Below are positions 12,001 through 59,868 of a stretch of 64,000 nucleotides of DNA, piece by piece. The DNA is from Thermoanaerobaculia bacterium. GTDB taxonomy: Bacteria > Acidobacteriota > Thermoanaerobaculia > Multivoradales > UBA5704. The notes beneath the pieces are model-generated. The model saw only the letters and a list, made by a program, of their open reading frames with translations. It ran no database searches and had not been told where the DNA came from. Position 1 is the stretch's first letter. Every line of letters starts with the position of its first letter. The position numbers and the translations under genes were made by a program. The stretch is from the NCBI GenBank assembly GCA_035278895.1, contig DATEIO010000954.1, positions 104 to 64,103 of the forward strand, in the 5' to 3' direction.

Positions 12001-12875
12001 GAGAGGTTCTCGCGGATCACCTCGCTTACTGGAAACGCCATCTCGCAGGTGCCTGGAAGCTGCTGGAGCTCCCGGCCGACCGTCCGCGCCCCGACCGCCT
12101 GAGCTACCGCGGTGCGTGGATCCGGCTGCCCATTGCCGCAGCCACGTCGCAGAAGATCTCGGAGCTCAGCCGGCGTCAAGGGACGACCCCGTTCATGACG
12201 CTGCTCGCCGCCTTCGACGTCCTCTTGGCGCGGCTCTCGGGCCAGGAGGATGTGGTGGTTGGAATGACGGTCGCCAACCGGACCCGCGCGGAGATCGAAA
12301 ATCTGATCGGTTTCTTCGTGAATCTGCTGCCCCTGCGCGTCGATCTCTCGGGCTCCCCTACCTTCCTCGCTCTGCTGCAGCGGGTCCGCGAAGCCTCTCT
12401 CGGCGCGCAGGCCCACCAGGACCTGCCCTTCGACAAGCTGGTCGAAGCCGTGCGTCCCGACCGGAGCGCGGGCGACGCGCCCTTGTTCCGCATCACCTTC
12501 GGCGTGCAGAACACGCCGCAGGAGACCCTGGATCTCCCGGGGCTGCAGCTCAGCGCCTTCGGCCGGCAGGAGGAGACCGTGCGCTTCGATCTCACCGTCT
12601 GGGTGTTCGAGACCGAAACGGGCTTCTCGGTCCAGTGGAGCTACAGCACCGAGCTGTTCGACGAATCGACCATCCGGCTCCTGCACGACCGGTTCGCCCA
12701 GCTCCTCGAGAGCATCGTCGAGCGGCCCGAGGCCGAGATCGAGGCTCTGGAGATGCTCTCGCCCCAGGAGCGCCAGAAGCGGGCGCGTCTTGAAACAGCG
12801 AAGAAGACCTCGCGGCACGCCAAGCTGCTTGAAGCCCAACCGAAAAAACTCCGGCTGACCCGGCCGAACCACTAA
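1..12875 (+). CDS. Non-ribosomal peptide synthetase, 5' end cut by window edge: (T)-C-A-T-E-C-A-T-E-C-A*-T-C
   Basis: The frame is open from base 3 (LRALFEGPTIAELAERV = tail of a carrier domain), so the TTG at 39 in the ORF track is not the true start. Motifs read in translation: LCL-type C (LPLSFAQQRLWF ~121; HHIASDGWS); A (YTSGSTGRPKG ~1940 and ~6520; by-eye code DLFNNALTYK in both, Ala-like); T (LGGDSILS ~3085 and ~7660); E (LTPIQHWFF ~3265 and ~7835; HHLAVDGxSWR); DCL-type C after each E (YPLSPMQEGMLFH ~4714; YPLSPIQLGMLLH ~9241); 190-aa A remnant 10560-11130; T (LGGHSLLA ~11256); terminal C (HHIVIDAWS ~11850). Stop TAA 12873-12875. Confidence 0.95.
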   Translation, partial: LRALFEGPTIAELAERVHAAFQAGSGLELPAIQPVPRDRDLPLSFAQQRLWFLWQLEPESPAYNSPKALRMRGPLDVPALERTLDEIVRRHEVLRTTFPSTDGRPVQRIDPEARPGLPVHDLSADPDREERARAAFRAEAQRPFDLAREIPIRTRLLVLGPEDHVLLLTTHHIASDGWSVAVLEREVTALYQAFSAGEPSPLPELPVQYADFAEWQREWLQGEVLERQLAYWRGQLAGTPPVLELPLDRPRPAVASPRGKRLAFAVPSALSRSLTELSQRRSVTPFMTLLAGFQVLLARSSGQSDVSVGTPIAGRRHIETEGMIGFFVNTLVMRGAVEGTRSFDELLGQVRETALQAYAHQDLPFERLVDELAPERSLQHTPLFQVMLVLQNVERDGVQIGGLELSPFAAEPGVAKLDLLLSLGEEAGVLRGELQYRTELFDRATIARLAGHLVSLLESAAAAPQSLLSDLALLAPAERHQLLTEWNDTGVLPAGPATLPALFAAQAARSPRAVAVVCGEESLTYAELDRRAGRLAQRLRAMGVGPEVRVGLCAERSLEMVVGLLGVLKAGGAYVPLDPAYPQERLAFMLEDSGAPVVLAGASVLDRLPRGTTRVMALGEEGEDGPEVWATDAELPVEPGHLAYLIYTSGSTGRPKGVAIEHRSAAALLAWAREVFSDEEIAAVFASTSICFDLSVFELFVPLTRGGRVVLGADALELPGLPAAREVTLINTVPSALSELLRMNAVPPSVRAINLAGEPLRRALVDRIAALGTGARVMNLYGPSEDTTYSTFAEVSQRTSEEPRIGRPVSGSAAYVLDRDGQPAPLGVAGELYLAGAGLARGYLGRPELTAERFVPDPFGREPGGRLYRTGDLVRQRREGDLDFLGRIDHQVKIRGFRIELGEIEAALLAQPCVREAVVLVREDRPGDRRLVAYVAGDAVEPTLLRERLGERLPAYMVPALFVQLSALPLTPNGKVDRRSLPVPEGERPELRSGFLAPGTPAEQTLAAIWSQVLGVAQIGAHDNFFELGGDSILSIQIVARANQAGLRLTPRQIFLHPTVAGLAAAAGDPESTPAAEQGLVTGPVPLTPIQHWFFDQGFHRVDHFNQAVLLEVRKPLELKVLEQAVLHLLAHHDGLRLRFVQEPSGWRQEIGDLPQQAPVLFLDLSALPEDPWKDALEREATRVQASLSLTSGPIVRCALIHLGDGEPDRLLIVVHHLAVDGVSWRVLLEDLQRACEQLAAGGEARLPAKTSSYRQWAERLESHACSAAVRDEPGFWLSEDRRRVRPLPVDDLEGAAGLAGNTAGSTVSVAVELEEDETQALLQEVPKAYRTRIDEVLLAALALASEDWTGEPLSLVDLEGHGREELGADLDVSRTVGWFTSIYPALLDTQGLRSPGELLKSIKEQVRGIPGRGLGYGLLRYAGGDPETAAALGTLPQAQVIFNYHGQIDQVLAGSSIFAPASETTGPSMDPSERRRHLLSLNGIVSAGRLRMTVRFSDRVYRPATIQALAEGFRQHLRGLIEHCLSPEAGGATPADFPLLRASQRELDLLLAAVASSRAPEGRPEIQDLYPLSPMQEGMLFHSLFEAGTTAYVCQSRYALENLDVQAFERAWDAVIARQPVLRTGFFTTGSGRPVQAVERKAHLALRAEDWRGLAADRQREGLDELARRERQEGFELTKPPLMRQVLVRVGEREHHLIWTHHHLLMDGWSVPLVLREVAAAYRAFSAGEPLELPEARPYRDYIAFLQARDPGPAEELWRRILAGFTVPTVLPVERREASASPVEERGREQVRWPATSFAGLEAFARRHQLTVHTLVQGAWALLLGRYSGSDDVVFGSVVSGRPPQLAGVESMAGLFINTLPVRVQMPPRASVLPWLQSLQAEQLALREVEHTPLVQVQRWSEVPPGTPLFDTLLVFENYPVDPRIGQGLGALQIRRVEAVEHTSYPLNLLAAASGELSLTLEHDASRFEAATICALRLHLEQLLGGLVEDPQRSLADLPMLGEAERQQILSEHQGRALEGEVAPRLHALFERQARQQPDAIAVVSGDGELRYGDLDARAERLADCLRALGVGPEVTVGVCLERSPQLLVALLGVLKAGGAYVPLDPGYPAERLAFMLKDSGAAVVLSESSVAGKLPESQAQVVRLDDAWPWAVGPMAGPPAEPGHLAYVIYTSGSTGQPKGVAIEHRSAAALLAWAQELFSDPEVSAVFASTSICFDLSIFELFVPLSRGGRVILGTDALQLPDLAAAGEVTLINTVPSAINELLRMNAVPPSVRTINLAGEPLRRALVDRIAALGTVKRVLNLYGPSEDTTYSTVADVPLDSAREPRIGRPVSGSSAFVLDRQDRLAPLGVPGELVLAGSGLARGYLGRPELTAERFVPDPFGNEPGGRLYRTGDLVRRLRDGDLEFLGRIDHQVKVRGFRIELGEIEASLLAQPGVREAVAVVREDRPGDRRLVAYFAGEAAIPDLRERLREKLPAFMVPSLFVALDALPLTPNGKVDRRALPAPESERPEPRAGFSAPGTPAEQTLAEIWAQVLGVERVGVYDDFFELGGDSILSIQIVARANQSGLRVTPRQLFEHPTVAALAAVAGTAEIPKTEQGLVTGPVPLTPIQHWFFERGFQKVDHYNQALLLEVRQPLEPAVLERAVLHLLTHHDALRLRFFRGSSGWQQESRGLPARAPFARIDLSTLAPAQRRANLEAAATCVQAGLHLATGPIVRCALFHLGSGEPDRLLIAIHHLAVDGISWRVLLEDLQGACEQLAAGGEVRLPAKTSSFRQWSEALERHARSAAVREELGFWLSGERRGVRPLPVDDPAGPVAATAGSALSVAVSLGEDETRALLQDASRAYGTRIDEVLLSALASACADWTGEPLTLIDVEGHGREDLGAGIDVSRTVGWFTTIYPVLLDIRGLWSPGALLKSVKEQVRGIPGRGLGYGLLRHSSGDPEIAAALGELPQAQILFNYLGQVDQALSGSATFGPARESAGLSMDPAESREYLLDVQGVVTGGRMHLTLRSSERVHRRETLEALAEGIWRHLQALIEHCLSPEAGGFTPSDFPLAALSQAAVDRLTADRSVEEIYPLSPIQLGMLLHALREPGSEVYCEQMSCAFRGELDRGALQAAWRGVVSRHSILRTGFVWEGLTEPLQVVHREVELPFVHQLWRDVPPELVEARFAAFLREDKQRGFDLAQAPLIRLTLIELAPGDYRFVWTTHHIVTDGWSTPVLVREMFALYEAQRQGRAADLATVRPFRGYIAWLREQSPAADERFWRQELAGITGPTPLDVDRWAPVSEETRHGEERIQLSAAVTAALVALTRRCSVTLSTVVQGALALLLGRYSGRRDVVFGATVSGRPALLAGVESIVGPFINTLPVRVRVPADGEDTASWLRGLQKHQAERQQHEHSPSVQPWSEVPLGLPLFEVLLVVENQRQEVPAGGPEAVAAAVEIREVRSEVRTRYPLNLVVLPGRELALYVPYNAARFDAGTIQRFLRHLATALESIAEAPEAPVSEIALFDRRERELVTSGGRSLEEPLRRLIAGRRSWGDEAMAAGLEALRDPRVQVLDEDGRPAPVGVSGELWVEETGEGEVKRLRTGELARFQETGEIELLGPLGQRIEIRGRRVDPQTVEPVLAEHPGVAEAAVLGIGSVAGGELWAGVVAAPGQPLDVAALRTWLESRLPKHRVPRTIVRLDDPPRTPDGVLDRRSLLATARSAAEGAGSAPGEPLQEILLGLWREVLGVEDLGVHDGFLELGGHSLLAVRLLARLREVFQVEVPLRTLFDAPSVAELAPQLAAMLALGGPREAPALVRVTDDRGRDFAPSYAQQRLWFLDQLEPDNPFYTHLFGVRLTGRLEAGTLEKALSEIVRRHEVLRTTLPAVAGQPVQRIAPPRPVRLPLTDLGGCAAEVAEQELQAWSREEALRPFDLTRGPLLRAALFRLAPDRHVIFLTLHHIVIDAWSIGLLFREMATLYQAFEAGQASPLPELTIQYADFAEWQRGWMQGEVLADHLAYWKRHLAGAWKLLELPADRPRPDRLSYRGAWIRLPIAAATSQKISELSRRQGTTPFMTLLAAFDVLLARLSGQEDVVVGMTVANRTRAEIENLIGFFVNLLPLRVDLSGSPTFLALLQRVREASLGAQAHQDLPFDKLVEAVRPDRSAGDAPLFRITFGVQNTPQETLDLPGLQLSAFGRQEETVRFDLTVWVFETETGFSVQWSYSTELFDESTIRLLHDRFAQLLESIVERPEAEIEALEMLSPQERQKRARLETAKKTSRHAKLLEAQPKKLRLTRPNH
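10560..11130 (+). other. Truncated adenylation domain remnant (A*): only A6-A10-like C-terminal part, degenerate
   Basis: Only ~190 aa lie between the C-A linker (EIALFDRRERE ~10530) and the carrier domain. The recognisable relics are GELWVEE (A6), LRTGEL (A7), GQRIEIRGRRVDPQTVE (A8), LPKHRVP (A9) and PDGVLDRR (A10). The A10 Lys is replaced by Val at 11100-11102. There is no SGSTG P-loop and no specificity pocket. Confidence 0.8.
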
Positions 12876-12886
12876 GGAGGATGTCC

Positions 12887-13939
12887 ATGAGCCAACTGAC
12901 GAGCGATTCCAGCTTCAGCCGATTCGCCGCGCGCCCGCGCAAGGCCGTGCGCCTGTCCCAGGAGGAACTGATCAAGACCCGCTTCCTGCCGGAAGCGGAC
13001 GGTCAGGAGCTGCCGCTGGTGATCGAGCCCAACGTGGAGAATCTCAATCTCACCACCTGGGCGGCCAACAACCAGGGCTTCCTGGAAGAGAAGCTCCACA
13101 CCTACGGCGCTCTCCTGTTCCGCGGCTTCGACGTCGACGGCCCCGAACAGTTCCGCGAGGTGGCGCGGGCGATCTGCCCGGACCTGCTCGACTACACCGA
13201 GCGCGCGGCGCCGCGCAACGAGGTGAAGGAGAACGTCTACACCTCGACCGAGTTCCCGCCCGACCAGCACATCCCGATGCACCACGAGATGTCCTACTCG
13301 CACAACTGGCCGACCCGGCTCCTGTTCTTCTGCGATCAACCCTCGCAGGAAGGGGGCTGCACGCCGATCACCGACGATCGAAAAGTGATCGATCTGCTGG
13401 ATCCGGAGGTCAAACAGCGCTTCCTGGAGCGGGGAGTGATGTACGTCCGCAATTACGGAGAAGGGGTCGACATGCCCTGGCAGGTGGTCTTCCAGACCGC
13501 GGACAGGGCCGGGGCCGAGGCCTACTGCCGGGACGCCCACATGGACATCGAGTGGCGCGACGGCGATCGCGTCCGCACCCGCGCCCGGCGCCAGGTGCTC
13601 GCGACCCATCCGAAGACGGGCGACACGGTCTGGTTCAACCATGCCCACCTGTTCCACATGTCCAACCTGGAGCCGGCAGTCCGCGACGCGCTGCTCGCCG
13701 AGTTTGAGCCCGACGAGCTGCCGCGCAACGCCTTCTACGGCGACGGCTCGGCGATCGAGGCGCCGGACCTGGAGCACATCCGCCGCACCTACAGCGACAA
13801 CGCCGTCCGCTTCCTTTGGCAGAAGGGGGACGTCCTTCTGGTCGACAACTTCCTGGTGTCGCACGGCCGCGATCCGTTCAAGGGACCCCGCCGGATCCTG
13901 GTCGCCATGGCGGACCTCTACACCAATCCGGATCTCTGA
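12887..13939 (+). CDS. TauD/SyrP/KtzO-like Fe(II)/2-oxoglutarate-dependent amino-acid hydroxylase
   Basis: AAGGAGG lies at 12874-12880. The track start ATG 12881 abuts it; the in-frame ATG 12887 has a 6-nt spacer and is preferred. The translation shows the TauD-family layout, with an HxE iron ligand pair (PMHHEMSY) and a distal His-Gly-Arg (FLVSHGRDPFKG). The gene starts 5-11 nt after the upstream NRPS stop, inside the NRPS operon. Confidence 0.85.
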   Translation: MSQLTSDSSFSRFAARPRKAVRLSQEELIKTRFLPEADGQELPLVIEPNVENLNLTTWAANNQGFLEEKLHTYGALLFRGFDVDGPEQFREVARAICPDLLDYTERAAPRNEVKENVYTSTEFPPDQHIPMHHEMSYSHNWPTRLLFFCDQPSQEGGCTPITDDRKVIDLLDPEVKQRFLERGVMYVRNYGEGVDMPWQVVFQTADRAGAEAYCRDAHMDIEWRDGDRVRTRARRQVLATHPKTGDTVWFNHAHLFHMSNLEPAVRDALLAEFEPDELPRNAFYGDGSAIEAPDLEHIRRTYSDNAVRFLWQKGDVLLVDNFLVSHGRDPFKGPRRILVAMADLYTNPDL

Positions 13940-13988: not shown

Positions 13989-15280
13989 ATGCGGCAGCAA
14001 GTCATTGAAGGTTTCCGTCTCTCTCCCCAGCAGCGGCAGCTCTGGCGGCACCGCGGCACGGCAGGAGCCCAGGTGGTGCAGTGCGCCGCCACTCTTGAGG
14101 GAGCGGATCCGGACCGTTGGGAACAGGCGCTCCGCGAGGTGGCCTGGCGGCACGAGGCCCTGCGCACCCGCTTCGAATGCCTGCCGGGCATGGAAGTGCC
14201 GATCCAGGTGATCGGCGAGGAGGTCGCGCTCCCGGTACGGCGGATCTCCGCCGGCTCCATGGCTGCCGCGGGAGTGGAGGAGGCGGTCCGGAGCTGGATG
14301 GAGCAGGAGAGGGCTCCTTTCGACCTCCGGTCCGCTCCGCCGGTCCGCTTCGCTCTGGCCTCTCTCGGCGCGGGCCGGGACCTCCTGATCCTCTCTGCTC
14401 ATGCGCTGTGCGCCGATCCCTGGAGCCTGGAGAATCTTCTCTGCGACCTCGTCCAGGCCTGCGCCGCCCCGGGCGACGGCGAGGCCTTCGACGCGGAGGC
14501 TCTGGGATACGTCCAGTTCTCCGAATGGCAGAACGAGCTGCTCGAAGACCGTGAGAACGAAGACGAGGAGGCGTCCGCCTTCTGGGCCCGGCAGACCCGG
14601 GACGACGGCGCGCCGCTCTCGCTGCCGATCGAACGGGCTCCGCACCGCCGGACCACGGCGGAGAGAGCGGCGGCCCCGGCCGTGCGCCGACGCCTGGAGG
14701 CCGCGGCCCTGGAGCGGGCGGCGGAGGCCTGCGGATCCTCGGTCACGACCCTGGTTCTAACCTGCTGGGGGCTCCTCCTGGCCCGCCTCGCGGACGTCGG
14801 GGAGATCTCGATGCAGCTCTACACCCCGGGTCGCAAGTTCCCTGAGCTCCAGGGCGCGATCGGAGCCTTCGGCCGCTATCTTCCGCTGCGCCTGCGGGGG
14901 CCGGCGGGCCGGTCGCTCAAGGCGGAGGCCGCGCGCGTCACGGAAAGGCTGCTGGAGGTCGAGAGGTGGGAGGAGCTTTTCGCCGGGCGCGCGGAATCCG
15001 GCGTGGAGAGCGGCGATCCGGCAGATTTCGGTTTCGATGCCGAGGACCGGCAGACCCTGTTCGAGGAGGGGAGCCTGCGCCTCACAGTCCTCGAGACGGA
15101 GTGGGCGAGCCAGCCTTTCCGGCTCCGCCTGTCGGTGAGCCGCTGCGCCGGTGAGCTCGAGCTGACCTTGCGGTTCGATCCGGCGCACTTCGACCGTGGG
15201 GCCGTGCACCGGCTCGCGGACAGCCTGGAGTCCCTGCTGCGGCAGGCCGCGCGCTCGCCCGAGACCGCCACGGCCGACTT
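13989..15280 (+). other. Full-length condensation-like domain lacking the catalytic His (C*)
   Basis: About 430 aa. It has a C1-like motif (LSPQQRQLW) and its own C-A linker (LDVLGEAERQQMDAWN ~15285). The C3 motif reads H-A-L-C-A-D-P, so the second (catalytic) His is Ala. Confidence 0.7.
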
Positions 15281-18200
15281 GGACGTCCTGGGCGAGGCCG
15301 AGCGGCAGCAGATGGACGCGTGGAATGCGACCGCGATCGATTTCCCGGACGAGGCGAGCCTTTCCTGGCGGTTTGCGGCCCAGGCCGAGCGTGCGCCTGA
15401 AGCGGTGGCCGTGGTGGCACCGGAAGGGCAGCTCACCTTCCGCGCTCTCAGCAAACGCGTCGACCGTCTCGCGGATCGCCTGCGCGGCCTCGGGGTCGGT
15501 CCCGAGGTGCGCGTGGCCCTCTGCCTCGACCGTTCCCTGGATCTGATCACCGGTATTCTGGGCGTGCTGGCGGCGGGCGGAGCCTACGTGCCGTTCGATC
15601 CCTGGCAGCCGGCCGAGCGCCTGGCGGCCCTGCTCGAAGACTCAGGCGCGCCGGTGGTCCTCTGCCAGAGCCGCTCGCGGGGGCGGGTGCCCTGCGGAGC
15701 CTGGCAGGTGGTCTGCCTCGATGGGGAAAGCGCACCCCTGGCGCAGGAGCCGGAGAGGTGTGCGAGCCCGGCAGCCGGACCGGAGAGCCTCGCCTACGCC
15801 ATCTACACCTCGGGCTCCACCGGCCGCCCCAAGGCGGCGTTGATCGAAAACCGGTCCGTGGCGAACCTCCTGTTGGCTCTGGAGCGCGAGATCTACTCCC
15901 GGCTTGACGGCCGCCGGCCCCTGCGGGTGACTCTCAATGCGCCGGTCTCGTTCGATGCCTCCGTCAAGCAGTGGATCCAACTGCTGCAGGGCCGGACCCT
16001 GCTGGTGGTTCCCGAGGAGGTGCGGGCGGACGGCGAAGCGTTGCTCTTGTGGCTCAACCAGAACCACGTGGACGTCCTCGACTGCACGCCGTCGCAGCTC
16101 CGCCTGCTCCTCGCCGCCGGCCTCGGCAGCGAGCCCGACCGCTTCGCGATCTACCCGCGCGCCGTGCTGGTCGGTGGCGAGGCCATCGATCCCGGCCTGT
16201 GGGCACAGCTCGCCCGCGACAAGGGGCGGCTCTTCTTCAACGTCTACGGTCCCACGGAATGCACGGTCGACACGACCGTGTGCCGGGTGGAGCCGGGGGG
16301 CACCCCTTCGATCGGCGGGGCGCTCGCCAATGTCCGGACCTACGTGGTCGACGCCGGGTGGCGCCGGACGCCGATCGGGGTTCCGGGCGAGCTCTGCATC
16401 GCCGGCGCCGGCCTGGCGCGCGGGTATGCCGGGCGCCCCGACCTGACGGCGGAGAAGTTCGTGCCCGATCCGTTCGCCCCTGAGCCGGGCGCCCGTCTCT
16501 ACCGGACCGGCGACCGCGCGCGCTTCTGCGGAGACGGCCGGCTGGAATACCTCGGGCGCGTCGACCACCAGGTCAAGATCCGTGGCTACCGGGTGGAGCT
16601 GGGGGAGATCGAAGGGGTGCTCTCGCGCCACCCGGGCGTGGCACAGACGGTGGCGGCGCTGCGCGAAGACCAGCCCGGACGCCCGCGCCTGGTGGCCTAC
16701 GTGACGCCGCGGCGGCGGCACGCGGAGAAAGTGGGGGAGGGGCAGCACGAGCTGCCGAACGGCCTCCGCGTCACCCACCAGAACCGCAACGAGACCGAGT
16801 ACCTGTACCGGGAGATCTTTGAGAGCCGGTGCTACGCCCGGCACGGAATCTTCCTGCCCGAGGACGCCTGCGTTTTCGACGTCGGTGCCAACATCGGCAT
16901 GTTCACCCTCTTCGTGCAGGGAGAGTGTACGCGGCCGCGGGTCTACGCCTTCGAGCCCCTGTCTGCGATCCACGACTGCCTGCGGGCGAACAGCCAGCGG
17001 TATGGGCTGGACGTGAAGCTCTTCCGGTTCGGCCTGTCGGATCGGGAACGGACGGAGCGGTTCACCTACTACCCCAGCTACTCGATGATGTCCGGGCAGA
17101 GTGCCTACGCTCAGCCGTCCGCCGAGATCGAGGTCATCCGGCGCTTCCTCGAAAACCAGACCGCCAGCGGCATCGCTGGCGCGGACGCCCTGCTGGCCGA
17201 GGCGGGCGACCTGCTTGCCAATCGCTTCCGGATGGAGGAGGCCGAGGTCACCTTGCGCCGTCTCTCCAACGTGATGCGGGAGCAGGGGATCGAGCACGTC
17301 GATCTGTTGAAGATCGACGTGCAGCGGGCCGAGCTGGACGTGCTCCTCGGGATCGACGACGAGGATTGGCCGCGCATCGACCAGGTCGTCCTCGAAGTCC
17401 ACGACGGGGCCGGCGAGGCGACCGAAGGACGGGTCGCTCAGATCCGCGCCCTGCTGGAGCCGCGCGGCTTCCGCGTGGTGGCCGAGCAGGACGAGCTGCT
17501 GACCGGCACCGATCGCTACAACGTCTACGCCATCCGCCAGGGCCTGGAGACCCGGGCCGCCCGCGCCTGCGAGGCTTCAGGGCTCGCCCGGTTGCGCGAG
17601 GCCGGCGCGGCGGAGCTCTCGGCCGACGGCCTTCGCGAGCACGCCCGCCGCTGGCTGCCGGACTTCATGGTCCCCTCCGATCTGGTGATCCTGGACGAGC
17701 TCCCCATCACCCCCAACGGCAAGGTCGACCGCCGCGCGCTGCCGGCGCCGGAAGAGGTGGCCGCAGCCGGGCAGCGCCAGGTCCGGGCGCCACGCACTCC
17801 GATCGAAGAGGTCCTGGTGGGGCTCTTCGCCGCAGTGCTCGGCCTCGACCGGGTCGGCGTCGACGAGAGCTTCTTCGACCTGGGGGGGCACTCCCTGATG
17901 GCCACCCAGCTCATGGCGCGGGTGCGCGAGACCTACCGGGTGGAGATGCCGCTGCGCCTCCTCTTCGAGCGCCCCACGCCGGAGCGGCTGGCCCAGAGCG
18001 TGGCGACCGCTCTGCGCGCCGGCGTCGACGTCCGGGAGTCCATCCCGCCGGTGCCGCGCGAGGGCGATCTGCCGCTCTCGTTCGCGCAGCAGCGGCTCTG
18101 GTTCGTCCAGCAGTTGGAGCCGGACGCCACGATGTACAACAGCATCAAGGCGCTCCGCGCCCGGGGGGAGCTCGACGTCGCGGCCCTGGAGGCCACCTTC

Positions 18201-19475
18201 ACGGAGCTGGTGCGGCGCCACGAGATCCTGCGGACCACCTTCCTCTCGGTCTCCGGCGAGCCCGTGCAGCGCATCCATCCGCCGGCCCCGGTCGACCTCC
18301 CGGTGATCGACCTGGAGGGATTGCCGGAGCCCGTCCGTCTCGACGAGGCGCGCCGCCGGTGCAAGAGCGAGACGACGACCCCCTTCGATCTGGCGCACGA
18401 GGTGATCCGGTTCCGGCTCCTCCGGCTCTCCTCCAAGGATCACGTCATCCTCCTCGGTTTCCACCACATCCTCGGAGACGCCTGGTCGCTGAACGTGATC
18501 GAACGCGAAGTCCGGACCCTGTACGAAGGGTTCCGGGAGGGGCGTCCGGCCGGGTTGCCGGACCTGCCGGTCCAGTACGCCGATTTCGCGTGGTGGCAGC
18601 GCCAGTGGCTGCAGGGGGAGGTCCTCGACGCGCATCTCGCGTACTGGAAGAAGCAGCTCGCCGGGGTGCCGCTGGTCCTCGATCCCGCCGCTCACGAGCC
18701 ACGGCCCCGGGGGGTTGCCCGCCGGCAGGCGGAGAGCCTCGTGGCCCTGGGGCCGGAGATCACGGAGAAGATCAAGGCTCTCGGCCTCCAGCAGGGGACC
18801 ACGCTGTACATGACCCTCCTGTCCGCCTTCTCCGTGCTGATGTCCCGCTTCGCGCAGCAGGACGATCTGGTCCTGGGCACCTCGTTCGCGGGCCGCGAGC
18901 GCGTCGAGACCGAGGGGCTCATCGGGTGCTTCGTCAACGTCCTGCCGATGCGAGCGAATCTCACCGACCGGCCGACGTTCCTGGAGCTTCTGGGGCGCAT
19001 GCGTGAGGTGACGCTGGGCGCCTACGCGCATCAGAACCTCCCCTTCGAGCGCCTGGTCGAAGAGCTGACGGACGAGAGGCGGCTCGGCCGCAATCCGGTC
19101 GTCCAGGTCTTCTTCGGGATCCAGAACGCGCTGGACGTGAAGCTCGGGCTCCCCGGCCTCGAGATGGAGCCCTTCGAGGAGGGATACGAAGAGGTGCGCG
19201 TCGACCTGAGCGTCTGGATGTGGGAATCGGGAGACGCCCTGAAAGGGGTGTGGAGCTACGACACCTCTCTGTTTCTCCCGCAGACCATCGAACGGATGCA
19301 GAAGGGCTTCGAGAATCTCCTCGCAAGCCTCCTCGCCGACCCGGAAGCCCGGGTTCACGACCTGGAGCTCAGGACCGAAGCCGAGAAGGAAGAGCTGCAA
19401 CAACAGGCGAAGGCTCTCAAGCAGTCCAACCTCGAGAGATTCCGCAAAGCGAAGGCCCGGCCGGCTGCTGTCTGA
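13989..19475 (+). CDS. Non-ribosomal peptide synthetase: C*(His-less)-A(Glu-like, interrupted by FkbM-type methyltransferase)-T-C
   Basis: ATG 13989 follows AGAGGGGA. N-terminal C-like domain has MRQQVIEGFRLSPQQRQLW but SAHALCADP in place of HHxxxDG (~14394-14420). A core: YTSGSTGRPK ~15805; by-eye code DAKDLGVVDK. A8: KIRGYRVELGEIE ~16575. Insert 16710-17545. A9/A10: LPDFMVP ~17655, PNGKVDRR ~17715. T: LGGHSLMA ~17880. Terminal C: LPLSFAQQRLWF ~18070, HHILGDAWS ~18465. Stop TGA 19473-19475. Confidence 0.93.
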   Translation: MRQQVIEGFRLSPQQRQLWRHRGTAGAQVVQCAATLEGADPDRWEQALREVAWRHEALRTRFECLPGMEVPIQVIGEEVALPVRRISAGSMAAAGVEEAVRSWMEQERAPFDLRSAPPVRFALASLGAGRDLLILSAHALCADPWSLENLLCDLVQACAAPGDGEAFDAEALGYVQFSEWQNELLEDRENEDEEASAFWARQTRDDGAPLSLPIERAPHRRTTAERAAAPAVRRRLEAAALERAAEACGSSVTTLVLTCWGLLLARLADVGEISMQLYTPGRKFPELQGAIGAFGRYLPLRLRGPAGRSLKAEAARVTERLLEVERWEELFAGRAESGVESGDPADFGFDAEDRQTLFEEGSLRLTVLETEWASQPFRLRLSVSRCAGELELTLRFDPAHFDRGAVHRLADSLESLLRQAARSPETATADLDVLGEAERQQMDAWNATAIDFPDEASLSWRFAAQAERAPEAVAVVAPEGQLTFRALSKRVDRLADRLRGLGVGPEVRVALCLDRSLDLITGILGVLAAGGAYVPFDPWQPAERLAALLEDSGAPVVLCQSRSRGRVPCGAWQVVCLDGESAPLAQEPERCASPAAGPESLAYAIYTSGSTGRPKAALIENRSVANLLLALEREIYSRLDGRRPLRVTLNAPVSFDASVKQWIQLLQGRTLLVVPEEVRADGEALLLWLNQNHVDVLDCTPSQLRLLLAAGLGSEPDRFAIYPRAVLVGGEAIDPGLWAQLARDKGRLFFNVYGPTECTVDTTVCRVEPGGTPSIGGALANVRTYVVDAGWRRTPIGVPGELCIAGAGLARGYAGRPDLTAEKFVPDPFAPEPGARLYRTGDRARFCGDGRLEYLGRVDHQVKIRGYRVELGEIEGVLSRHPGVAQTVAALREDQPGRPRLVAYVTPRRRHAEKVGEGQHELPNGLRVTHQNRNETEYLYREIFESRCYARHGIFLPEDACVFDVGANIGMFTLFVQGECTRPRVYAFEPLSAIHDCLRANSQRYGLDVKLFRFGLSDRERTERFTYYPSYSMMSGQSAYAQPSAEIEVIRRFLENQTASGIAGADALLAEAGDLLANRFRMEEAEVTLRRLSNVMREQGIEHVDLLKIDVQRAELDVLLGIDDEDWPRIDQVVLEVHDGAGEATEGRVAQIRALLEPRGFRVVAEQDELLTGTDRYNVYAIRQGLETRAARACEASGLARLREAGAAELSADGLREHARRWLPDFMVPSDLVILDELPITPNGKVDRRALPAPEEVAAAGQRQVRAPRTPIEEVLVGLFAAVLGLDRVGVDESFFDLGGHSLMATQLMARVRETYRVEMPLRLLFERPTPERLAQSVATALRAGVDVRESIPPVPREGDLPLSFAQQRLWFVQQLEPDATMYNSIKALRARGELDVAALEATFTELVRRHEILRTTFLSVSGEPVQRIHPPAPVDLPVIDLEGLPEPVRLDEARRRCKSETTTPFDLAHEVIRFRLLRLSSKDHVILLGFHHILGDAWSLNVIEREVRTLYEGFREGRPAGLPDLPVQYADFAWWQRQWLQGEVLDAHLAYWKKQLAGVPLVLDPAAHEPRPRGVARRQAESLVALGPEITEKIKALGLQQGTTLYMTLLSAFSVLMSRFAQQDDLVLGTSFAGRERVETEGLIGCFVNVLPMRANLTDRPTFLELLGRMREVTLGAYAHQNLPFERLVEELTDERRLGRNPVVQVFFGIQNALDVKLGLPGLEMEPFEEGYEEVRVDLSVWMWESGDALKGVWSYDTSLFLPQTIERMQKGFENLLASLLADPEARVHDLELRTEAEKEELQQQAKALKQSNLERFRKAKARPAAV
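16710..17545 (+). other. FkbM-family SAM-dependent methyltransferase inserted between A8 and A9 of the adenylation domain
   Basis: About 280 aa are inserted after RLVAYV (~16700) and before LPDFMVP (~17655). The insert contains a VFDVGANIGMF SAM-binding motif (16871-16903) and the stretch YAFEP...RFGLSDRE...LLKIDVQRAELDVL, which is typical of FkbM-type methyltransferases. Confidence 0.8.
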
Positions 19476-19504: not shown

Positions 19505-20820
19505 ATGGAACAACTGCAGTCGTCGCTCGAGGGATTCTGGCTTTCTCCCCAGCAGAAGCGCGTGTGGCTCCTGAGCCGGAGCGGCCCCGCTCTGGTCGAA
19601 CAGGGTGTCGTTCTCGTGGAAGGCTCTCTCGATCCGCGCCGCCTCGAAGCGGCGCTGGCGCGGGTTCTCGAGCGGCACGAAATCCTTCGGACCACCTTCA
19701 AAGCGGTGTCCGGCATGGCGTTCCCGCTCCAGGTCGTCGAGGACGGCGCGGACCTCGCGCTGCGCACCATGGACTGGAGCGCCGGAGGCCCCGGAATTGC
19801 GGAGGACGAGGCATTCGACGCCATCCTGCGCGAAGAGCGGGAGACCGGCTTCGACTTCGAGGAAGGGCCGGTCGCACGCTTCTGCCGCATCACGCTCGGC
19901 GGGCAGCGGCACGCGCTGGTGATCACGCTGCCGTCCGTCTGCGGAGATGCGGCGAGCCTCGAAAACCTGGTCGGCGAGATCGGCCGGGAGTATCTCGCGG
20001 AGAGCGGAGTGCCGAGCCTGCAGGAGCAGGAGGAGCCGGTCCAGTACATCCAGTTCTCGGAGTGGCAGAACGAGATCCTGAGCGACACCTCCGAGGAGGG
20101 GGAGCCGGGACGGCGCCACTGGCGGTCGCGCCAGGAGATCTCCGGGCCAGCGCCAAGCCTGCCTCTCGAAGGAGAGGCAGAGGTGGCGCAAGGGGTCTCC
20201 CGGACCTTGCGCCTCTCGCCGGGCCCGGACCTCGGGGCAGGCCTGGCCGCCTGGGCCGCGGCGCGGGGGGTGACGGAGAGCGCGGTCCTCCTCGCAGCCT
20301 GGTGGGGCACGCTCTGCCGGCTGACCGATCGCGAGGAGCTCCGGATTTCCGTGCAGTGCCACGGCCGGGCCTATGAAGAGATGCTCGGGGCCATCGGGCT
20401 CTACGAGCGCTGGCCCGCAATCGGCCGCGGTCTACGCAGCAGCTTCCTGTTTTCGGAGGTGGTCGACTCTTTCTCCCGGGAGCTCGCCGAAGCGCTGGAA
20501 TGGCAGGAGCTCTACGGGCCTGAGGCGCTCGACGGGAGCACCGCCGGAGGCGGGGGATTCGGCTTCGAGTACACCACCCGCCGCGGCGAGCCTTTCCAGG
20601 CGGGGCCGGTGCGCTTCTCCCTGGCGCGGCTCGACGGCTGCACCGAACGCTTCAAGCTCCGCCTCTCCGCAGCGCGCGGTCCGCGAGGGCTCGGGCTCGA
20701 CCTGTGCTTCGATCCGGGCCTGTACGAGGACACGGCGGCGCTGCGCCTCGCGGAGAGCTTCTTCGCCCTGCTCGCCGCGGGTCTGGCAGCGCCCGACACT
20801 CCCGTCCAGGAGCTCGAGGT
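19505..20820 (+). other. Full-length condensation-like domain lacking both His of HHxxxDG (C*)
   Basis: The C1-like motif GFWLSPQQKRVW is present. The C3 position reads LPSVCGDAA (19931-19951), with no His at all. It has its own C-A linker, LEVLGGTELGLLALWN (~20815). Confidence 0.7.
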
Positions 20821-23800
20821 GCTGGGCGGCACGGAGCTTGGGCTCCTCGCCCTGTGGAACCGCACCTCCTGCCCGCGGCCGGCCGAAGAGCGCCTGCACG
20901 AGCTGTTCGCCGAGCAGGCGAGGCGCACCCCCAAGGCCCTGGCGGTGCTCGCCGGCGACGCGCGGCTGACCTTCGCCGAGCTCGACCAGCGGGCCAACCG
21001 GATCGCCTGGCTCCTGGCCGGTCTCGGGATCGGACCCGACGACCGGGTGGCGCTCTGCCTCGAGCGCTCGGCGGACGCCATCGCCGCCCTCCTGGGGATT
21101 CTCAAGGCCGGCGGCGCCTATGTGCCGGTCGACCCCCTGCAGCCGGGCGACCGGCTCGCCGCCATGCTCTCGGACGCCGGGGCCCGGGTGGTCCTGAGTC
21201 AGAGCCGTCTCTCTTCGCGCGTGCCGCCGGGCTCCTGGCGCACGGTGCTTCTGGATGAGGAGAGCGAGCTCCTGGAGCAGCAGCCCGGGACCGCTCCGGA
21301 GGTGAGCGTCACCGCGGAGCACCTAGCCTACGTGATCTATACCTCGGGCTCCACCGGCCGGCCCAAGGGGACGCTCATACGGCACCGGTCCGTGGCCAAC
21401 CTGATCGTCGCTCTCGACCGGGCCATTTACGGCCGGCTGGGAGAGGGGCCGTGGCGGGTGAGCGTCAATGCGCCTCTGTATTTCGACGCCTCGGTCAAGC
21501 AGTGGGTCCGGCTGCTCCGCGGCGACACGCTGGCGATCGTGGCCGAGGAGCTGCGTACCGACGCTCCGGCGCTCCTCGACTGGCTGCGCCGGGAGCAGGT
21601 GGACGTCCTCGACTGCACACCGTCGCTCTTGCGGCTCCTGCTCGGTGCCGGGCTTCCGGCCGCGGATGGCAGGCCTCAGGCCCTGCTGATCGGCGGGGAG
21701 GCGATCGACGCGGCGCTCTGGGAGGCGCTGGCGGCCGACCCTCATCGCCGGTCCTTCAACGTCTACGGCCCCACCGAATGCACCGTCGACGCTGCCATCG
21801 ACGAGATCGCGGCCGGCCGGACGCCGGCCCTCGGCCGGGCGATCGCCAACGTGGAGCTGTACGTCCTCGGCTCGGCGCTGCACCGGCAGCCGCTGGGGAG
21901 CCCGGGTGAGCTGTGCGTGGGCGGGGAAGGGCTGGCGCGCGGCTATCTGGGCCGCCCCGATCTGACGGCGGAGAAGTTCGTGCCCGATCCCTACGGCGGC
22001 CGGCCGGGGGGCCGTCTCTATCGCACGGGCGACCGCGCGCGTTTCCTCCCGGATGGCAGGATCGAGTTCCTCGGCCGCCTGGACCACCAGATCAAGCTGC
22101 GCGGCTTCCGGATCGAGCTGGGCGAGATCGAGGCTGCCCTGGCCAGCCACCCGGAGGTGAGTGAAGCGGTGGCGCTCTTGCGCGAGGACCAGCCCGGCCA
22201 GCCGCGCCTCGTGGCCTATGCCGTGGGGCGGAACCGGGACTGCTCACCGGCGCCGGAAGAGCTGCGCGAGCACCTGCGCGGGCTGCTGCCCGACTACATG
22301 GTCCCGGCCGCCTGCGTGGCCCTCCGGGAGATGCCCCTGACCCGCAACGGCAAGGTCGACCGCCGCGCGCTGCCCGCGCCGGAGGAGGTGGCCACCGAGG
22401 CGCGGGAGCGCCTGACGCCGCGGACCCCCATCGAAGAGATCCTGGTCGGGATCTTTGCCGACGTTCTCGGCATCCAGCCTCCGGGCGCCGACGAGAGCTT
22501 CTTCGAGCTCGGCGGGCACTCGCTTCTGGCCACTCAGCTCATCGCCCGGGTGCGCGAGTCGTTCCGCATCGACCTGCCTCTGCGCGTCCTTTTCGAGGAC
22601 CCCACGGCGGCGGCGCTGGGACCGCGGATCGAAGCCGCTCTGGCAGCCGGAGGCGCTCTGGAGGCGCCGCCACTCCAGGCGATGCCGCGCGAGGGGGACC
22701 TCCCCCTGTCTTTTGCCCAGCAGCGGCTCTGGTTCCTCTGGCAGCTCGAGCCGGACAGCCCGGCGTACAACAACCCCAAGGCCCTGCGGATCCGCGGTCC
22801 GCTGGAGGTCGCCGCCGTGGCGCAGACGCTCCGGGAGATCGTGCGTCGCCACGAGGTCCTGCGCACGACGTTCCCGGCCCTGGAGGGAGAGCCGGTGCAG
22901 CGGATCGAGCCGGCGGCGTTTCTCTCCCTGCCGCGGATCGACCTGTCGTCCCTGCCCGAGGAGGAGCGGGAAGCGGTGGCGCACCACCTTTTCCGCGCGG
23001 ATGCGCGGCGCCCATTCGACCTGGCGTGCGAGATCCCGGTGCGGGCGCAGTTGCTGTGCCTCGACGCCGACGACCATGTCCTGCTTCTCACCTTCCACCA
23101 CATCGCCTGCGACGCCTGGTCGCTGGCGGTTCTGGAGCGCGAGGTGACCCGGCTCTACGAGTCCTTCGCCGCCGGCCGGCCCTCCCCCTTGTCCGAGCTG
23201 CCGGTCCAGTATGTGGACTTCGCGCGCTGGCAGCGCGATTGGCTGCGGGGGGAAGCCCTGGAGCGCCAGCTCGCCCATTGGCGTGGCCGGCTCGAAGGCG
23301 CTCTGCCGGTCCTCGCGCTGCCGCTCGACCGGCCGCGTCCCGCGGTGTCGAGCTCGCGCGGCCGGCGGCAGACGCTCGCGATTCCGGCCCCGCTGTCGCG
23401 CGCCCTGGCCGAGCTGAGCCAGCGGCGGGCGTCGACCCTGTTCATGACTTTGCTGGCCGGCTTCCAGGCCCTGCTGGCCCGCCTCTCGGGGCAGGAGGAC
23501 GTGAGCGTCGGAACCCCGATTGCAGGCCGCCGCCATGTCGAGACCGAAGGGCTGATCGGGTTTTTCGTCAACACCCTCGTGCTGCGCGGACGGATGGAGG
23601 GGAACCCGGCGTTCGAGGATCTCCTGGGACAGGCTCGGGAGACCGCGCTCCAGGCCTACGCTCACCAGGACCTCCCGTTCGAACGCCTGGTCGACGAGCT
23701 CGCTCCGCAGCGCGACATGGCGCACTCGCCGCTCTTCCAGGCCCTGCTCGTTCTGCAGAACGTGGGACGGGACGGTGTGCAGGTCGCCGGCCTGGATCTC

Positions 23801-50568: not shown

Positions 50569-50647
50569 GTGGGAAGCGGTTTACCCCGGCACGGGAAAGG
50601 AGTTACCCGAAGGCCGGTATTTTCAAGGGGTTGCGGCGCCTCCGGCC

Positions 50648-50663
50648 TGGCACTTGCCTTGCT
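50648..50663 (+). promoter_or_regulatory. Sigma54 (-24/-12) promoter element TGGCAC-N5-TTGCT
   Basis: The sequence TGGCACttgccTTGCT has exact GG-N10-GC spacing. It sits 80 nt after the exporter stop and 114 nt before the ADOP permease ATG, on the same strand. Confidence 0.55.
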
Positions 50664-50776
50664 CAATCGTCTTCGCGAGGTTGAGCATGAGCTGGCAAAC
50701 GCCCGCGAACGAAGCAGAACCTCGCGAGTTGGAATGAGTGGCTGATGACAGCCACGGAGAACCAGGAGACATCGCC

Positions 50777-53233: not shown

Positions 53234-53279
53234 CTGGACGCGGGAGGCCAGAGCCACAGCCAGGGTATGATCCTGGTTG

Positions 53280-54544: not shown

Positions 54545-54560
<16 letters not shown>
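53280..54560 (+). CDS. Soluble sensor histidine kinase (GAF-like N-terminal domain, HisKA, HATPase_c)
   Basis: H-box AHEIRNPLTAIRST. N/G boxes LNLLLNALQSMP, IADTGPGIP, GTGLGLAICYGIV. No hydrophobic TM segments. The track start is TTG 53277; ATG 53280 is the next codon. Confidence 0.85.
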
Positions 54561-55951
<1,391 letters not shown>

Positions 55952-55963
55952 CCTCCCGGTCTT

Positions 55964-56686: not shown

Positions 56687-56690
56687 CGGG

Positions 56691-59749: not shown

Positions 59750-59805
59750 GAGTACCTTTGGAACCGGTCAAGCTCGGCTTCTGAAGTCTATCAGCAAGTG
59801 CAGAA

Positions 59806-59821
59806 TGCAGCCTGCGTGCCA
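59806..59821 (-). promoter_or_regulatory. Sigma54 (-24/-12) promoter element, minus strand: TGGCACG-N4-CTGCA
   Basis: The reverse complement of 59806-59821 is TGGCACgcaggCTGCA, with exact GG-N10-GC spacing. It lies ~57 nt upstream of the ABC-2 operon start (59749) in the correct orientation. Confidence 0.5.
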
Positions 59822-59868
59822 TGGCGGAGCCCTGGAGCCGCGGACGTTCGCCAGCCCGAGGGGGAAAC

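What the first reader, a model, noticed from the sequence alone, without database searches (positions are those of the whole stretch)
16710..17545. FkbM-type methyltransferase embedded in a Glu-specific adenylation domain, next to a hydroxylase
Seen:
- A ~280-aa insert with the FkbM-family SAM motif VFDVGANIGMF interrupts the A domain between A8 (KIRGYRVELGEIE) and A9 (LPDFMVP).
- The by-eye specificity code is DAKDLGVVDK (Glu).

Established:
- Interrupted A domains with methyltransferases inserted at the a8-a9 site are known, including O-methylating ones.
- FkbM itself is an O-methyltransferase.
- 3-methoxy-Asp in A54145 arises by hydroxylation followed by O-methylation.

Inference: this module could make either a Glu gamma-methyl ester or, together with the TauD enzyme and the C* domain, a beta-methoxy-Glu residue. 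I am not aware of an interrupted Glu A domain of this kind.
Basis: partly seen in the sequence, partly recalled or inferred. Interest (0 to 1): 0.7.

Follow-up and report, generated by a model that had tools for sequence, protein, structure and literature searches.

The report
AmbE-like methoxy-glutamate NRPS module
A peptide-assembly module that loads glutamate, carries a built-in O-methyltransferase and sits next to a hydroxylase is really there. It is an in-line relative of the known Pseudomonas AmbE/AmbD machinery, so it is less novel than first thought, and it most likely installs a 4-methoxy-glutamate residue.

Summary
ORF 13989-19475 encodes Q(dead C-like)-A(Glu)-[FkbM methyltransferase]-T-C. 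The roughly 280-aa insert (16710-17545) lies between motifs a8 and a9. The specificity code is DAKDLGVVDK, and a TauD-family gene (12881-13939) sits directly upstream.

A characterised precedent exists: AmbE, from methoxyvinylglycine (AMB) biosynthesis in Pseudomonas aeruginosa. AmbE is a Glu A domain interrupted at a8-a9 by the same methyltransferase type. It works with the Fe/αKG oxygenases AmbC (C3-OH) and AmbD (C4-OH), and its MT methylates the 4-OH.

The window protein aligns colinearly with an AmbE ortholog (MT 54% identical), and its TauD falls in the AmbD clade. More than 545 related modules exist in species-representative genomes; 69 of 76 readable codes are Glu-like, and TauD synteny is conserved.

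Unlike AmbE, the window has no AmbC-type enzyme and no dehydrating C(modAA) domain. An ordinary LCL-type C domain continues the chain into a peptide of at least 13 residues.

Best reading: Glu on the carrier is hydroxylated, probably at C4, then O-methylated, giving 4-methoxy-Glu. It would be 3-hydroxy-4-methoxy-Glu if an AmbC-type gene lies upstream of the window. A γ-methyl ester or a vinyl ether is unlikely. This is a new variant of a known kind, of moderate interest.

The parts
12881..13939 (+). Stand-alone Fe(II)/α-ketoglutarate dioxygenase (TauD family) of the AmbD clade. It is the only TauD homolog in the 64-kb window.
   Evidence: PF02668 scores 162.8 bits. It is 47% identical to AmbD and 44% to AmbC of L077. 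In an NJ tree it falls in the AmbD clade of 37 members, not the AmbC clade of 31. tblastn finds no second copy in the window. The HHE and SHGR metal/αKG motifs align with 1Y0Z.
13989..19475 (+). NRPS2: Q - A(Glu) interrupted by MT - T - C. A single-module protein colinear with the first five domains of AmbE.
   Evidence: One BLASTP HSP covers aa 6-1686 against the L077 AmbE ortholog (35% identity, 733 bits).
13989..15323 (+). N-terminal Q domain. It has a full-length condensation-family fold but lacks the catalytic HH (SAHALCAD in place of HHxxxDG). It is the equivalent of AmbE's N-terminal domain of unknown function.
   Evidence: Pfam Condensation scores 170 bits over profile positions 7-455 of 456. 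The motif alignment gives a family consensus LPALCAD, and AmbE has VPPFVAD. It aligns with the AmbE N-terminus at 28% over 458 aa.
15324..16709 (+). A-domain core (a1-a8) with the Glu specificity code D A K D L G V V D.
   Evidence: Code positions are aa 656, 657, 660, 698, 727, 729, 752, 760 and 761. It is 42% identical to the AmbE A core. The same code occurs in 41 of 76 related interrupted A domains.
16710..17545 (+). FkbM-type (type II, DVGxNxG) SAM-dependent O-methyltransferase inserted between a8 and a9.
   Evidence: PF05050 and TIGR01444 both score above their cutoffs. It is 54% identical to the AmbE MT. All family-invariant residues are present. The AF2 model has pLDDT 92.5 and a class I MT fold.
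17546..17810 (+). Remainder of the A subdomain (linker, a9 LPDFMVP, a10 NGKVDR with the code Lys).
   Evidence: AMP-binding_C covers aa 1205-1245.
17811..17996 (+). Carrier (T) domain. The Ppant serine lies in FFDLGGHSL (nt 17871-17897).
   Evidence: PP-binding covers aa 1275-1336. Motif.
18024..19472 (+). Ordinary elongation C domain (LCL-like, HHILGDA), not a dehydrating CmodAA domain.
   Evidence: It is 45-50% identical to ten other C domains of the window but only 29% to AmbE CmodAA. The HH motif is at nt 18462-18482.
11439..12845 (+). C-terminal C domain of the upstream synthetase NRPS1 (HHIVIDAWS intact). It is the probable catalyst joining the upstream peptide to the modified Glu in trans, as AmbB-C does for AmbE.
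   Evidence: Its role here is inferred.
19505..22606 (+). Start of NRPS3: a second Q domain (33% identical to the first, also lacking HH), an uninterrupted Glu A domain (DAKDLGVVDK) and a T domain. It is a likely second target of the hydroxylase, without methylation.
   Evidence: In relatives the equivalent module carries the MT insert. Its role here is inferred.

Best explanation
This is an in-line, AmbE-type 'hydroxylate then O-methylate glutamate on the carrier' module.

Proposed sequence of events:
1. The A domain activates L-Glu and loads it on its T domain.
2. The adjacent AmbD-clade Fe/αKG dioxygenase hydroxylates the tethered Glu, most probably at C4.
3. The FkbM-type methyltransferase embedded between a8 and a9 transfers a methyl group from SAM to that hydroxyl.
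4. The C-terminal C domain of the upstream synthetase NRPS1 joins the growing peptide to the modified residue.
5. The ordinary LCL-type C domain at the end of NRPS2 passes the chain to NRPS3. NRPS3 carries nine more modules and a TE.

The window shows no AmbC-type C3-hydroxylase and no dehydrating CmodAA domain. The residue should therefore stay as 4-methoxy-Glu, or as 3-hydroxy-4-methoxy-Glu if an AmbC-type gene lies upstream of the window. It should not collapse to the vinyl ether of methoxyvinylglycine.

The catalytically dead N-terminal Q domain probably acts as a docking or recruitment platform for the upstream C domain and/or the hydroxylase.

Shown: domain order, homology, code, clade membership and synteny statistics.
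Inferred: substrate, regiochemistry, order of steps and the role of Q.
For: Anatomy.

Homology to AmbE:
- The protein is colinear with an AmbE ortholog in an ambABCDE-syntenic locus (L077). Identities are 54% for the MT and 42% for the A core, and the Q domain aligns.
- L077 is 76% identical to the P. aeruginosa protein fragment P0022.
- AmbE itself has the a8-MT-a9 arrangement.

Published biochemistry:
- AmbE-A loads L-Glu. AmbC hydroxylates T1-bound Glu at C3 and AmbD at C4, and the MT acts afterwards (PMC8968710).
- The MT O-methylates the 4-OH. The C2/CmodAA domain then performs a 2,3-dehydration and a decarboxylative vinyl shift (PMC10880069).

Window-specific evidence:
- The window TauD is in the AmbD clade.
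- There is only one TauD in the window.
- The downstream C domain is LCL-like.

Family-wide evidence:
- 69 of 76 readable codes of FkbM-interrupted A domains are Glu-like.
- A TauD gene lies directly upstream in nearly all loci with enough flank.
- Loci with AmbC plus AmbD types never continue into an LCL domain: 5 have CmodAA and 16 end after T. Single-TauD loci do continue into LCL in 11 of 12 cases (Fisher p = 6e-8).

MT integrity: all invariant residues are conserved and the model has a class I MT fold.
Against: - No biochemistry exists for any in-line member of this family.
- In AMB biosynthesis AmbD acts after AmbC, so activity of an AmbD-type enzyme on unmodified Glu is unproven.
- Most NRPS-associated TauD enzymes are β-hydroxylases (my own knowledge).
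- The MT phylogeny follows cluster and taxon, not TauD clade, so it gives no independent support for the regiochemistry.
- The window starts inside NRPS1. Close relatives (L080; the contig pairs L001/L026, L044/L005 and L009/L047) carry an AmbC-clade TauD and further Q-A(MT) modules upstream. A second hydroxylase may therefore exist outside the window.
- The TauD gene also lies next to a C-A*(truncated)-T module of NRPS1, which could be an additional or alternative target.
Confidence: 0.6

Rival explanations
1. β-Methoxy-Glu. The TauD enzyme hydroxylates C3 of the tethered Glu, as most NRPS-associated TauD enzymes do, and the MT methylates the 3-OH.
For: NRPS-linked TauD enzymes are typically β-hydroxylases (my own knowledge: KtzO/KtzP on Glu, AsnO, SyrP). 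MT domains of modules that follow AmbC-clade and AmbD-clade TauD genes in one cluster are close relatives, so the MT may not discriminate between positions. Single AmbC-clade TauD loci with the same module type exist.
Against: The window TauD belongs to the AmbD clade. AmbD is reported to hydroxylate C4 and AmbC to hydroxylate C3. The only characterised MT of this family methylates the 4-OH.
Confidence: 0.2
2. An in-line methoxyvinylglycine (AMB-like vinyl ether) residue. It would form by double hydroxylation, 4-O-methylation, 2,3-dehydration and decarboxylation, as in the AMB pathway.
For: The module is homologous to AmbE. A second, AmbC-type hydroxylase could be encoded upstream of the window, as in relatives.
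Against: No AmbC-clade gene is present in 64 kb. The C domain after T is LCL-like, with 29% identity to AmbE CmodAA against 45-50% to the cluster's ordinary C domains. Across loci, LCL continuation never co-occurs with the two-hydroxylase arrangement.
Confidence: 0.05
3. A Glu γ-methyl ester, or an inactive relic MT. The MT would methylate the side-chain carboxylate or do nothing, and the TauD enzyme would serve another module, for example the C-A*-T module of NRPS1 or NRPS3 module 1.
For: The TauD gene lies immediately downstream of the A*-T-C end of NRPS1. A few related loci show no TauD within 10 kb.
Against: The characterised homolog is a hydroxyl O-methyltransferase, as is the type II KtzH M domain. 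TauD-to-Q-A(MT) synteny is near-universal, including in amb where no A* module exists. All invariant MT residues are kept and the model is confident.
Confidence: 0.06

Closest known systems
AmbE with AmbC/AmbD (and AmbB): methoxyvinylglycine (AMB) biosynthesis in Pseudomonas aeruginosa (PMC4357302, PMC8968710, PMC10880069)
   Same: Both have an N-terminal Q (dead C-like) domain, a Glu-activating A domain interrupted at a8-a9 by an FkbM-type MT (54% identical), and a T domain. In both, a TauD-family gene lies directly upstream, of the AmbD clade here. In both, the upstream synthetase ends in a C domain that must act in trans (AmbB = A-T-C; NRPS1 = ...T-C).
   Different: The window has no AmbC-clade C3-hydroxylase, no dehydrating CmodAA domain and no T2-TE. 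Instead an LCL-type C domain hands the residue on within an assembly line of at least 13 modules. The expected product is a retained methoxy-Glu residue, not a vinyl-ether amino acid released as Ala-AMB.
Type II M domains / family 2a interrupted A domains, e.g. KtzH(A8-MII-A9) in kutznerides (Lundy et al. 2020, PMC8341866)
   Same: Same a8-a9 insertion site, same DVGx(N/H)xG SAM motif (DVGANIG) and same L(V/A/I)(A/G)(Y/F)xxx boundary (LVAYVTP). Both perform side-chain O-methylation of an aliphatic hydroxyl.
   Different: Family 2a is described for Ser/Thr, which already carry the hydroxyl. Here the A domain is Glu-coded and the hydroxyl must first be installed by a separate oxygenase. That survey does not mention AmbE or Glu.
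KtzO/KtzP with KtzH C-A*-T and KtzN: β-hydroxy-Glu in kutznerides (my own knowledge; cited as Strieker 2009 in PMC7100376)
   Same: TauD-family oxygenases hydroxylate carrier-bound Glu. The window also contains a truncated A* module (NRPS1) next to the TauD gene.
   Different: There is no methylation in kutznerides. The relatedness of the window TauD to KtzO/KtzP was not tested.
β-Methoxy-Asn/Asp routes with stand-alone enzymes
   Same: The same chemical logic: hydroxylation of a carrier-bound acidic or amide amino acid, then O-methylation.
   Different: The methyltransferase is a separate protein there, the substrate is Asp/Asn, and the position is β. Homology was not tested here.
Interface (I) domains that partner with stand-alone β-hydroxylases in siderophore NRPSs (Reitz et al. 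2019; my own knowledge, paper not held)
   Same: A condensation-family domain lacking the HHxxxDG histidines is found with modules whose residue is hydroxylated by a stand-alone TauD-type enzyme.
   Different: Membership of the Q domain in the I-domain subtype could not be tested, because no reference sequences or models were available.

Membership tests
AmbE-type module / AMB (oxyvinylglycine) pathway | Glu-activating A domain | tested here: met
   The code is DAKDLGVVDK. The AmbE ortholog has DSKDLGLVNK, and AmbE loads L-Glu experimentally. This is an in-silico test only.
AmbE-type module / AMB (oxyvinylglycine) pathway | MT domain homologous to AmbE-MT, inserted between a8 and a9 | tested here: met
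   54% identity over 265 aa. The AmbE ortholog has its MT motif at aa 954 and a9 at aa 1214.
AmbE-type module / AMB (oxyvinylglycine) pathway | N-terminal Q domain of about 450 aa | tested here: met
   The alignment is colinear from aa 6. The domain has a C-family fold without HH, as in the AmbE ortholog.
AmbE-type module / AMB (oxyvinylglycine) pathway | Two Fe/αKG oxygenases, AmbC (C3) and AmbD (C4) | tested here: not met
   The window holds only one TauD gene, of the AmbD clade. A second one upstream of the window cannot be excluded.
AmbE-type module / AMB (oxyvinylglycine) pathway | Dehydrating CmodAA domain after T1, then T2-TE | tested here: not met
   The downstream C domain is LCL-like, 45-50% identical to other window C domains against 29% to AmbE CmodAA. 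The protein ends after this C domain.
Interrupted A domain family 2a / type II M domain (Lundy 2020) | Insertion between a8 and a9 with the L(V/A/I)(A/G)(Y/F)xxx boundary | tested here: met
   RLVAYVTP lies at nt 16686-16709, directly before the insert.
Interrupted A domain family 2a / type II M domain (Lundy 2020) | SAM motif DVGx(N/H)xG | tested here: met
   VFDVGANIGMF lies at nt 16872-16904.
Interrupted A domain family 2a / type II M domain (Lundy 2020) | Ser/Thr substrate | tested here: not met
   The code is the Glu code, not a Ser/Thr code. The window's own Ser modules read DVWHMSLVDK.
FkbM family methyltransferase (PF05050 / TIGR01444) | Profile score above the curated cutoff | tested here: met
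   61.8 bits against a cutoff of 22.7, and 96.5 bits against a cutoff of 37.7.
FkbM family methyltransferase (PF05050 / TIGR01444) | Class I SAM-MT fold and SAM-dependent activity | tested here: inconclusive
   The fold is met: AF2 pLDDT 92.5, with Foldseek top hits all class I SAM methyltransferases. SAM binding and activity are not testable in silico.
TauD/TfdA Fe(II)/αKG dioxygenase acting on carrier-bound amino acids | TauD profile and metal/αKG-binding residues | tested here: met
   PF02668 scores 162.8 bits. HHE and SHGR align with the corresponding residues of 1Y0Z. Action on a carrier-bound substrate is inferred from AmbC/AmbD.
Interface (I) domain subtype of the C superfamily | Clusters with reference I domains; lacks the catalytic His; partners a stand-alone hydroxylase | not testable with these tools
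   Loss of HH and TauD linkage are shown. No I-domain references or models were available, and the Reitz 2019 paper is not held.

The most novel reading that the evidence does not exclude
Q-A(Glu)-MT-T plus a single AmbD-type oxygenase is a widespread, uncharacterised in-line cassette, found mostly in Acidobacteriota and Myxococcota. It would install 4-methoxy-glutamate, a residue I could not find reported in any nonribosomal peptide. The catalytically dead Q domain would be the tag that decides which modules the free-standing hydroxylase visits. Under this reading NRPS3 module 1, which has Q but no MT, would give 4-hydroxy-Glu right next to the methoxy-Glu.
Probability: 0.35. Interest if true: 0.6.

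Novelty: new variant of a known kind. Interest (0 to 1): 0.42.

Why it matters
The AMB machinery is known only as a small dedicated pathway that makes a vinyl-ether toxin. This window, and hundreds of related loci, show the same Glu-hydroxylation and O-methylation module reused as an ordinary building block in very large peptide assembly lines of uncultured soil bacteria.

The two components that create the vinyl ether, AmbC and CmodAA, are lost or absent together in these loci. This yields a concrete genome-mining rule:
- Two TauD genes with CmodAA, or with a chain that ends after T, indicate the oxyvinylglycine type.
- One TauD gene with an LCL-type C domain indicates a retained methoxy-Glu residue.

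It also gives a testable handle on the unexplained Q domain of AmbE. It does not overturn any established principle.

Tried and rejected
- An exact-protein lookup of the window TauD found nothing on record.
- An exact 60-mer search of the metagenome collection found nothing.
- A scan for relatives of the first C domain of NRPS1, meant to recover sequence upstream of the window, gave a best hit of only 67% identity with almost no upstream flank. Whether an AmbC-type gene lies upstream stays open.
- A sequence search of the insert against the PDB gave no real hit. The profile search with A1 was dominated by the A-subdomain and T flanks.
- The primary AMB papers and the I-domain paper are not held: Patteson 2018 and 2022, and Reitz 2019. 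The AmbC/AmbD regiochemistry therefore rests on two secondary accounts.
- I built an MT-domain tree to see whether MT clades track the TauD clade, which would have been independent evidence on regiochemistry. They do not.
- I considered and rejected the idea that the C domain after T is a CmodAA dehydratase.
- I considered and rejected the idea that the N-terminal domain is a starter or active C domain.
- A literature search for methoxy-glutamate residues returned only unrelated glucosinolate papers and the AMB intermediate.
Full report
**What is in the sequence**

The window is about 70% G+C. It is dominated by three co-directional NRPS genes:
- NRPS1, 39-12875, open at the 5' end of the window.
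- NRPS2, 13989-19475.
- NRPS3, 19505-48913, which ends in a TE domain.

A 352-aa gene (12881-13939) lies between NRPS1 and NRPS2. Pfam and NCBIfam place the following in NRPS2:
- a full-length Condensation-family domain, aa 11-442;
- AMP-binding, aa 462-813;
- Methyltransf_21/FkbM, aa 964-1163 (61.8 bits; TIGR01444 96.5 bits; both above their curated cutoffs);
- AMP-binding_C, aa 1205-1245;
- PP-binding, aa 1275-1336;
- a second Condensation domain, aa 1358-1803.

The a8 motif ends at nt 16613 and the conserved A/M boundary RLVAYVTP ends at nt 16709. The SAM motif VFDVGANIGMF is at 16872-16904, and a9 LPDFMVP is at 17655-17675. Mapping the Stachelhaus positions gives DAKDLGVVDK, the classical Glu code (my own knowledge of Stachelhaus 1999). 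The small gene is a TauD-family dioxygenase (162.8 bits) with its metal and αKG motifs in place. An AlphaFold2 model of the insert (pLDDT 92.5) matches only class I SAM methyltransferases.

**There is a characterised precedent**

A homology search with the insert returned many fragments in which the FkbM domain is flanked by a8 and by AMP-binding_C/PP-binding. One cluster, of 249 sequences, comes from Pseudomonas aeruginosa (53% identity).

A scan of species-representative genomes found more than 545 relatives. One of them, L077 from a Pseudomonas species, has the ambABCDE gene order and is 76% identical to the P. aeruginosa fragment.

NRPS2 aligns with that AmbE ortholog in a single colinear HSP over aa 6-1686. 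Identities are 54% for the MT and 42% for the A core, and the N-terminal domain aligns as well. In AmbE the MT likewise sits between a8 and a9.

[quoted passage not shown] The pathway runs as follows (PMC4357302; PMC8968710; PMC10880069):
1. The A domain loads L-Glu.
2. AmbC hydroxylates the T1-bound Glu at C3 and AmbD at C4.
3. The MT O-methylates the 4-OH.
4. The C2 (CmodAA) domain performs a 2,3-dehydration.
5. A decarboxylative vinyl shift follows, giving methoxyvinylglycine.

The published survey of interrupted A domains does overlook AmbE. That survey defines the same MT type (type II, DVGx(N/H)xG, a8-a9) for Ser/Thr only.

**The module type is widespread and strongly linked to TauD**

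- Of 76 related interrupted A domains with a readable code, 69 are Glu-like and 41 are identical to the window's.
- Nearly every locus with enough flank has a TauD gene ending about 2.7 kb upstream of the MT, directly before the NRPS gene, as in the window.
- The module almost always begins a new protein, preceded by the roughly 440-aa Q domain.
- Across the family, including AmbE, this domain has lost the HH of HHxxxDG. The consensus is LPALCAD, and the window has SAHALCAD with Ala at the catalytic His position. Ordinary C domains of the window, AmbB-C and AmbE-CmodAA all keep HH.

**How the window differs from AMB**

The TauD proteins of the related loci split into two clades. One contains AmbD, usually the gene next to the NRPS. 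The other contains AmbC. The window protein sits in the AmbD clade: 51-68% identity to its members against 41-49% to AmbC-clade members. tblastn finds no second TauD gene in the 64 kb.

The C domain that follows T in NRPS2 is 45-50% identical to ten other elongation C domains of the window, but only 29% to AmbE-CmodAA.

Across loci these two features go together:

| TauD genes upstream | What follows the T domain | Loci |
|---|---|---|
| AmbC type and AmbD type | CmodAA | 5 |
| AmbC type and AmbD type | Protein ends after T | 16 |
| AmbC type and AmbD type | LCL-type C | 0 |
| Single TauD | LCL-type C | 11 of 12 |

Fisher's exact test gives p = 6e-8. The window belongs to the second, 'in-line' class.

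**Most likely mechanism**

Glu is loaded on NRPS2-T. The AmbD-clade oxygenase hydroxylates it, probably at C4. The embedded MT methylates that hydroxyl. The intact C-terminal C domain of NRPS1 (HHIVIDAWS) adds the upstream peptide in trans, as AmbB-C does for AmbE. The LCL domain then transfers the chain to NRPS3.

Without a C3-OH and without CmodAA, the residue should persist as 4-methoxy-Glu. The steps from 'hydroxylates' onward are inferred from homology.

My estimates:
- about 0.75 for hydroxylation plus hydroxyl O-methylation;
- about 0.5 for C4 specifically.

**Caveats**

- AmbD normally acts after AmbC.
- The AmbC/AmbD assignment comes from secondary accounts, because the primary papers are not held.
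- The MT phylogeny does not track the TauD clade.
- The window starts inside NRPS1. Relatives with 64-74% identical parts carry, further upstream, an AmbC-clade TauD gene and more Q-A(MT) modules in the same cluster. These are L080 and the contig pairs L001/L026, L044/L005 and L009/L047. 3-Hydroxy-4-methoxy-Glu is therefore a live alternative.
- A vinyl-ether residue, a γ-methyl ester and a dead MT are each unlikely. Reasons are given under the rival explanations.

**Context of the cluster**

Domain mapping gives:
- NRPS1: ...C-A-T-E-DCL-A-T-E-DCL-A*(truncated)-T-C.
- NRPS2: Q-A(Glu, MT)-T-C.
- NRPS3: Q-A(Glu)-T, then modules coded Ser, Glu, Gln, Gln, DAFFLGVTFK, Ser, Ser and DAEQFGLIDK, then TE.

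ABC and MacB-type exporters and a σ54 activator follow the synthetases.

NRPS3 thus opens with a second Q domain in front of an uninterrupted Glu A domain. In relatives that module also carries the MT. This fits the idea that Q marks the modules visited by the hydroxylase, but the idea is untested. It resembles the 'interface' domains described for siderophore β-hydroxylases (my own knowledge; paper not held).

The source genome was not found. The nearest sequence is an 88%-identical metagenome contig (L079). The best named hits are Thermoanaerobaculia (Acidobacteriota) MAGs.

**Verdict**

It is a relative of a characterised system rather than something without precedent. It is best classed as a new, in-line variant of the AmbE/AmbD module: it lacks the vinyl-ether-forming parts and likely delivers a methoxy-Glu residue that I could not find reported in a nonribosomal peptide. 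Interest is moderate.

Noticed in passing
window 10596-11396 (NRPS1, last module): The last module of NRPS1 has a truncated A domain of about 185 aa. Only the equivalent of A-core residues 333-441 and a trace of AMP-binding_C remain, with no binding pocket. It lies between a DCL-type C and a T domain, so this T must be loaded in trans. The spacing is conserved in relatives L079 and L080. It sits right next to the TauD gene, which recalls the KtzH A*-T module of kutznerides (my own knowledge).
   Followed up: partly
window 19505-22606 (start of NRPS3): A second Q-type dead C domain (33% identical to the first, motif TLPSVCGD) precedes an uninterrupted A domain with the same Glu code. In relatives L003, L005, L026 and L080 the equivalent module carries the FkbM insert. 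This suggests the MT was lost here, or was never gained.
   Followed up: partly
L001+L026 (JBDSHF010000538.1), L044+L005 (CAWBWZ010000022.1), L009+L047 (JBDTZG010000009.1), L080: Giant Acidobacteriota clusters hold up to four Q-A(Glu,MT)-T modules and two TauD genes of different clades (AmbC-like and AmbD-like). The two TauD genes are placed far apart, and each directly precedes a pair of Q-starting NRPS genes.
   Followed up: partly
L030, L035, L046, L050, L063, L068: These FkbM-interrupted A domains have codes that look Asp-like (xxxK[VL]GHVG). Several have a TauD gene upstream. They are candidate built-in β-methoxy-Asp modules.
   Followed up: no
L061 1561-3180, L064 4232-5908, L073 3803-5488, L075 5180-6820: Two FkbM-like domains lie back to back inside one Glu-coded A domain. 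The second copy is 45-48% identical to the window MT. This is an apparent a8-M-M-a9 double interruption with two methyltransferases of the same type.
   Followed up: no
L028 (Corallococcus sicarius); similar L029, L032, L034: These myxobacterial loci read AmbB-like A-T-C, AmbC-like, AmbD-like, Q-A(MT)-T (protein ends after T), then a PKS module KS-AT-KR-DH-ACP. The modified Glu appears to be handed to a polyketide synthase rather than to a CmodAA domain.
   Followed up: partly
window 46313-48052 and L072: The last A domain of NRPS3 has the unassigned code DAEQFGLIDK. The same code occurs in the FkbM-interrupted A domain of locus L072.
   Followed up: no
window 12700-12875 and 19370-19475: NRPS1 and NRPS2 both end in charged, probably helical tails of 40-50 aa after their terminal C domains. 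NRPS2 and NRPS3 both start with EGF(R/W)LSPQQ. This is consistent with docking between a C-terminal C domain and an N-terminal Q domain.
   Followed up: no
window 48763-63511: Downstream of the TE domain lie an ABC exporter (48763-50568), a MacB-like permease (50738-53233), a σ54-dependent response regulator (53267-55951), ABC-2 transporter genes on the minus strand (55964-59749), a radical SAM protein (59952-61550) and an ECF-type sigma factor (61943-62503, minus strand).
   Followed up: no
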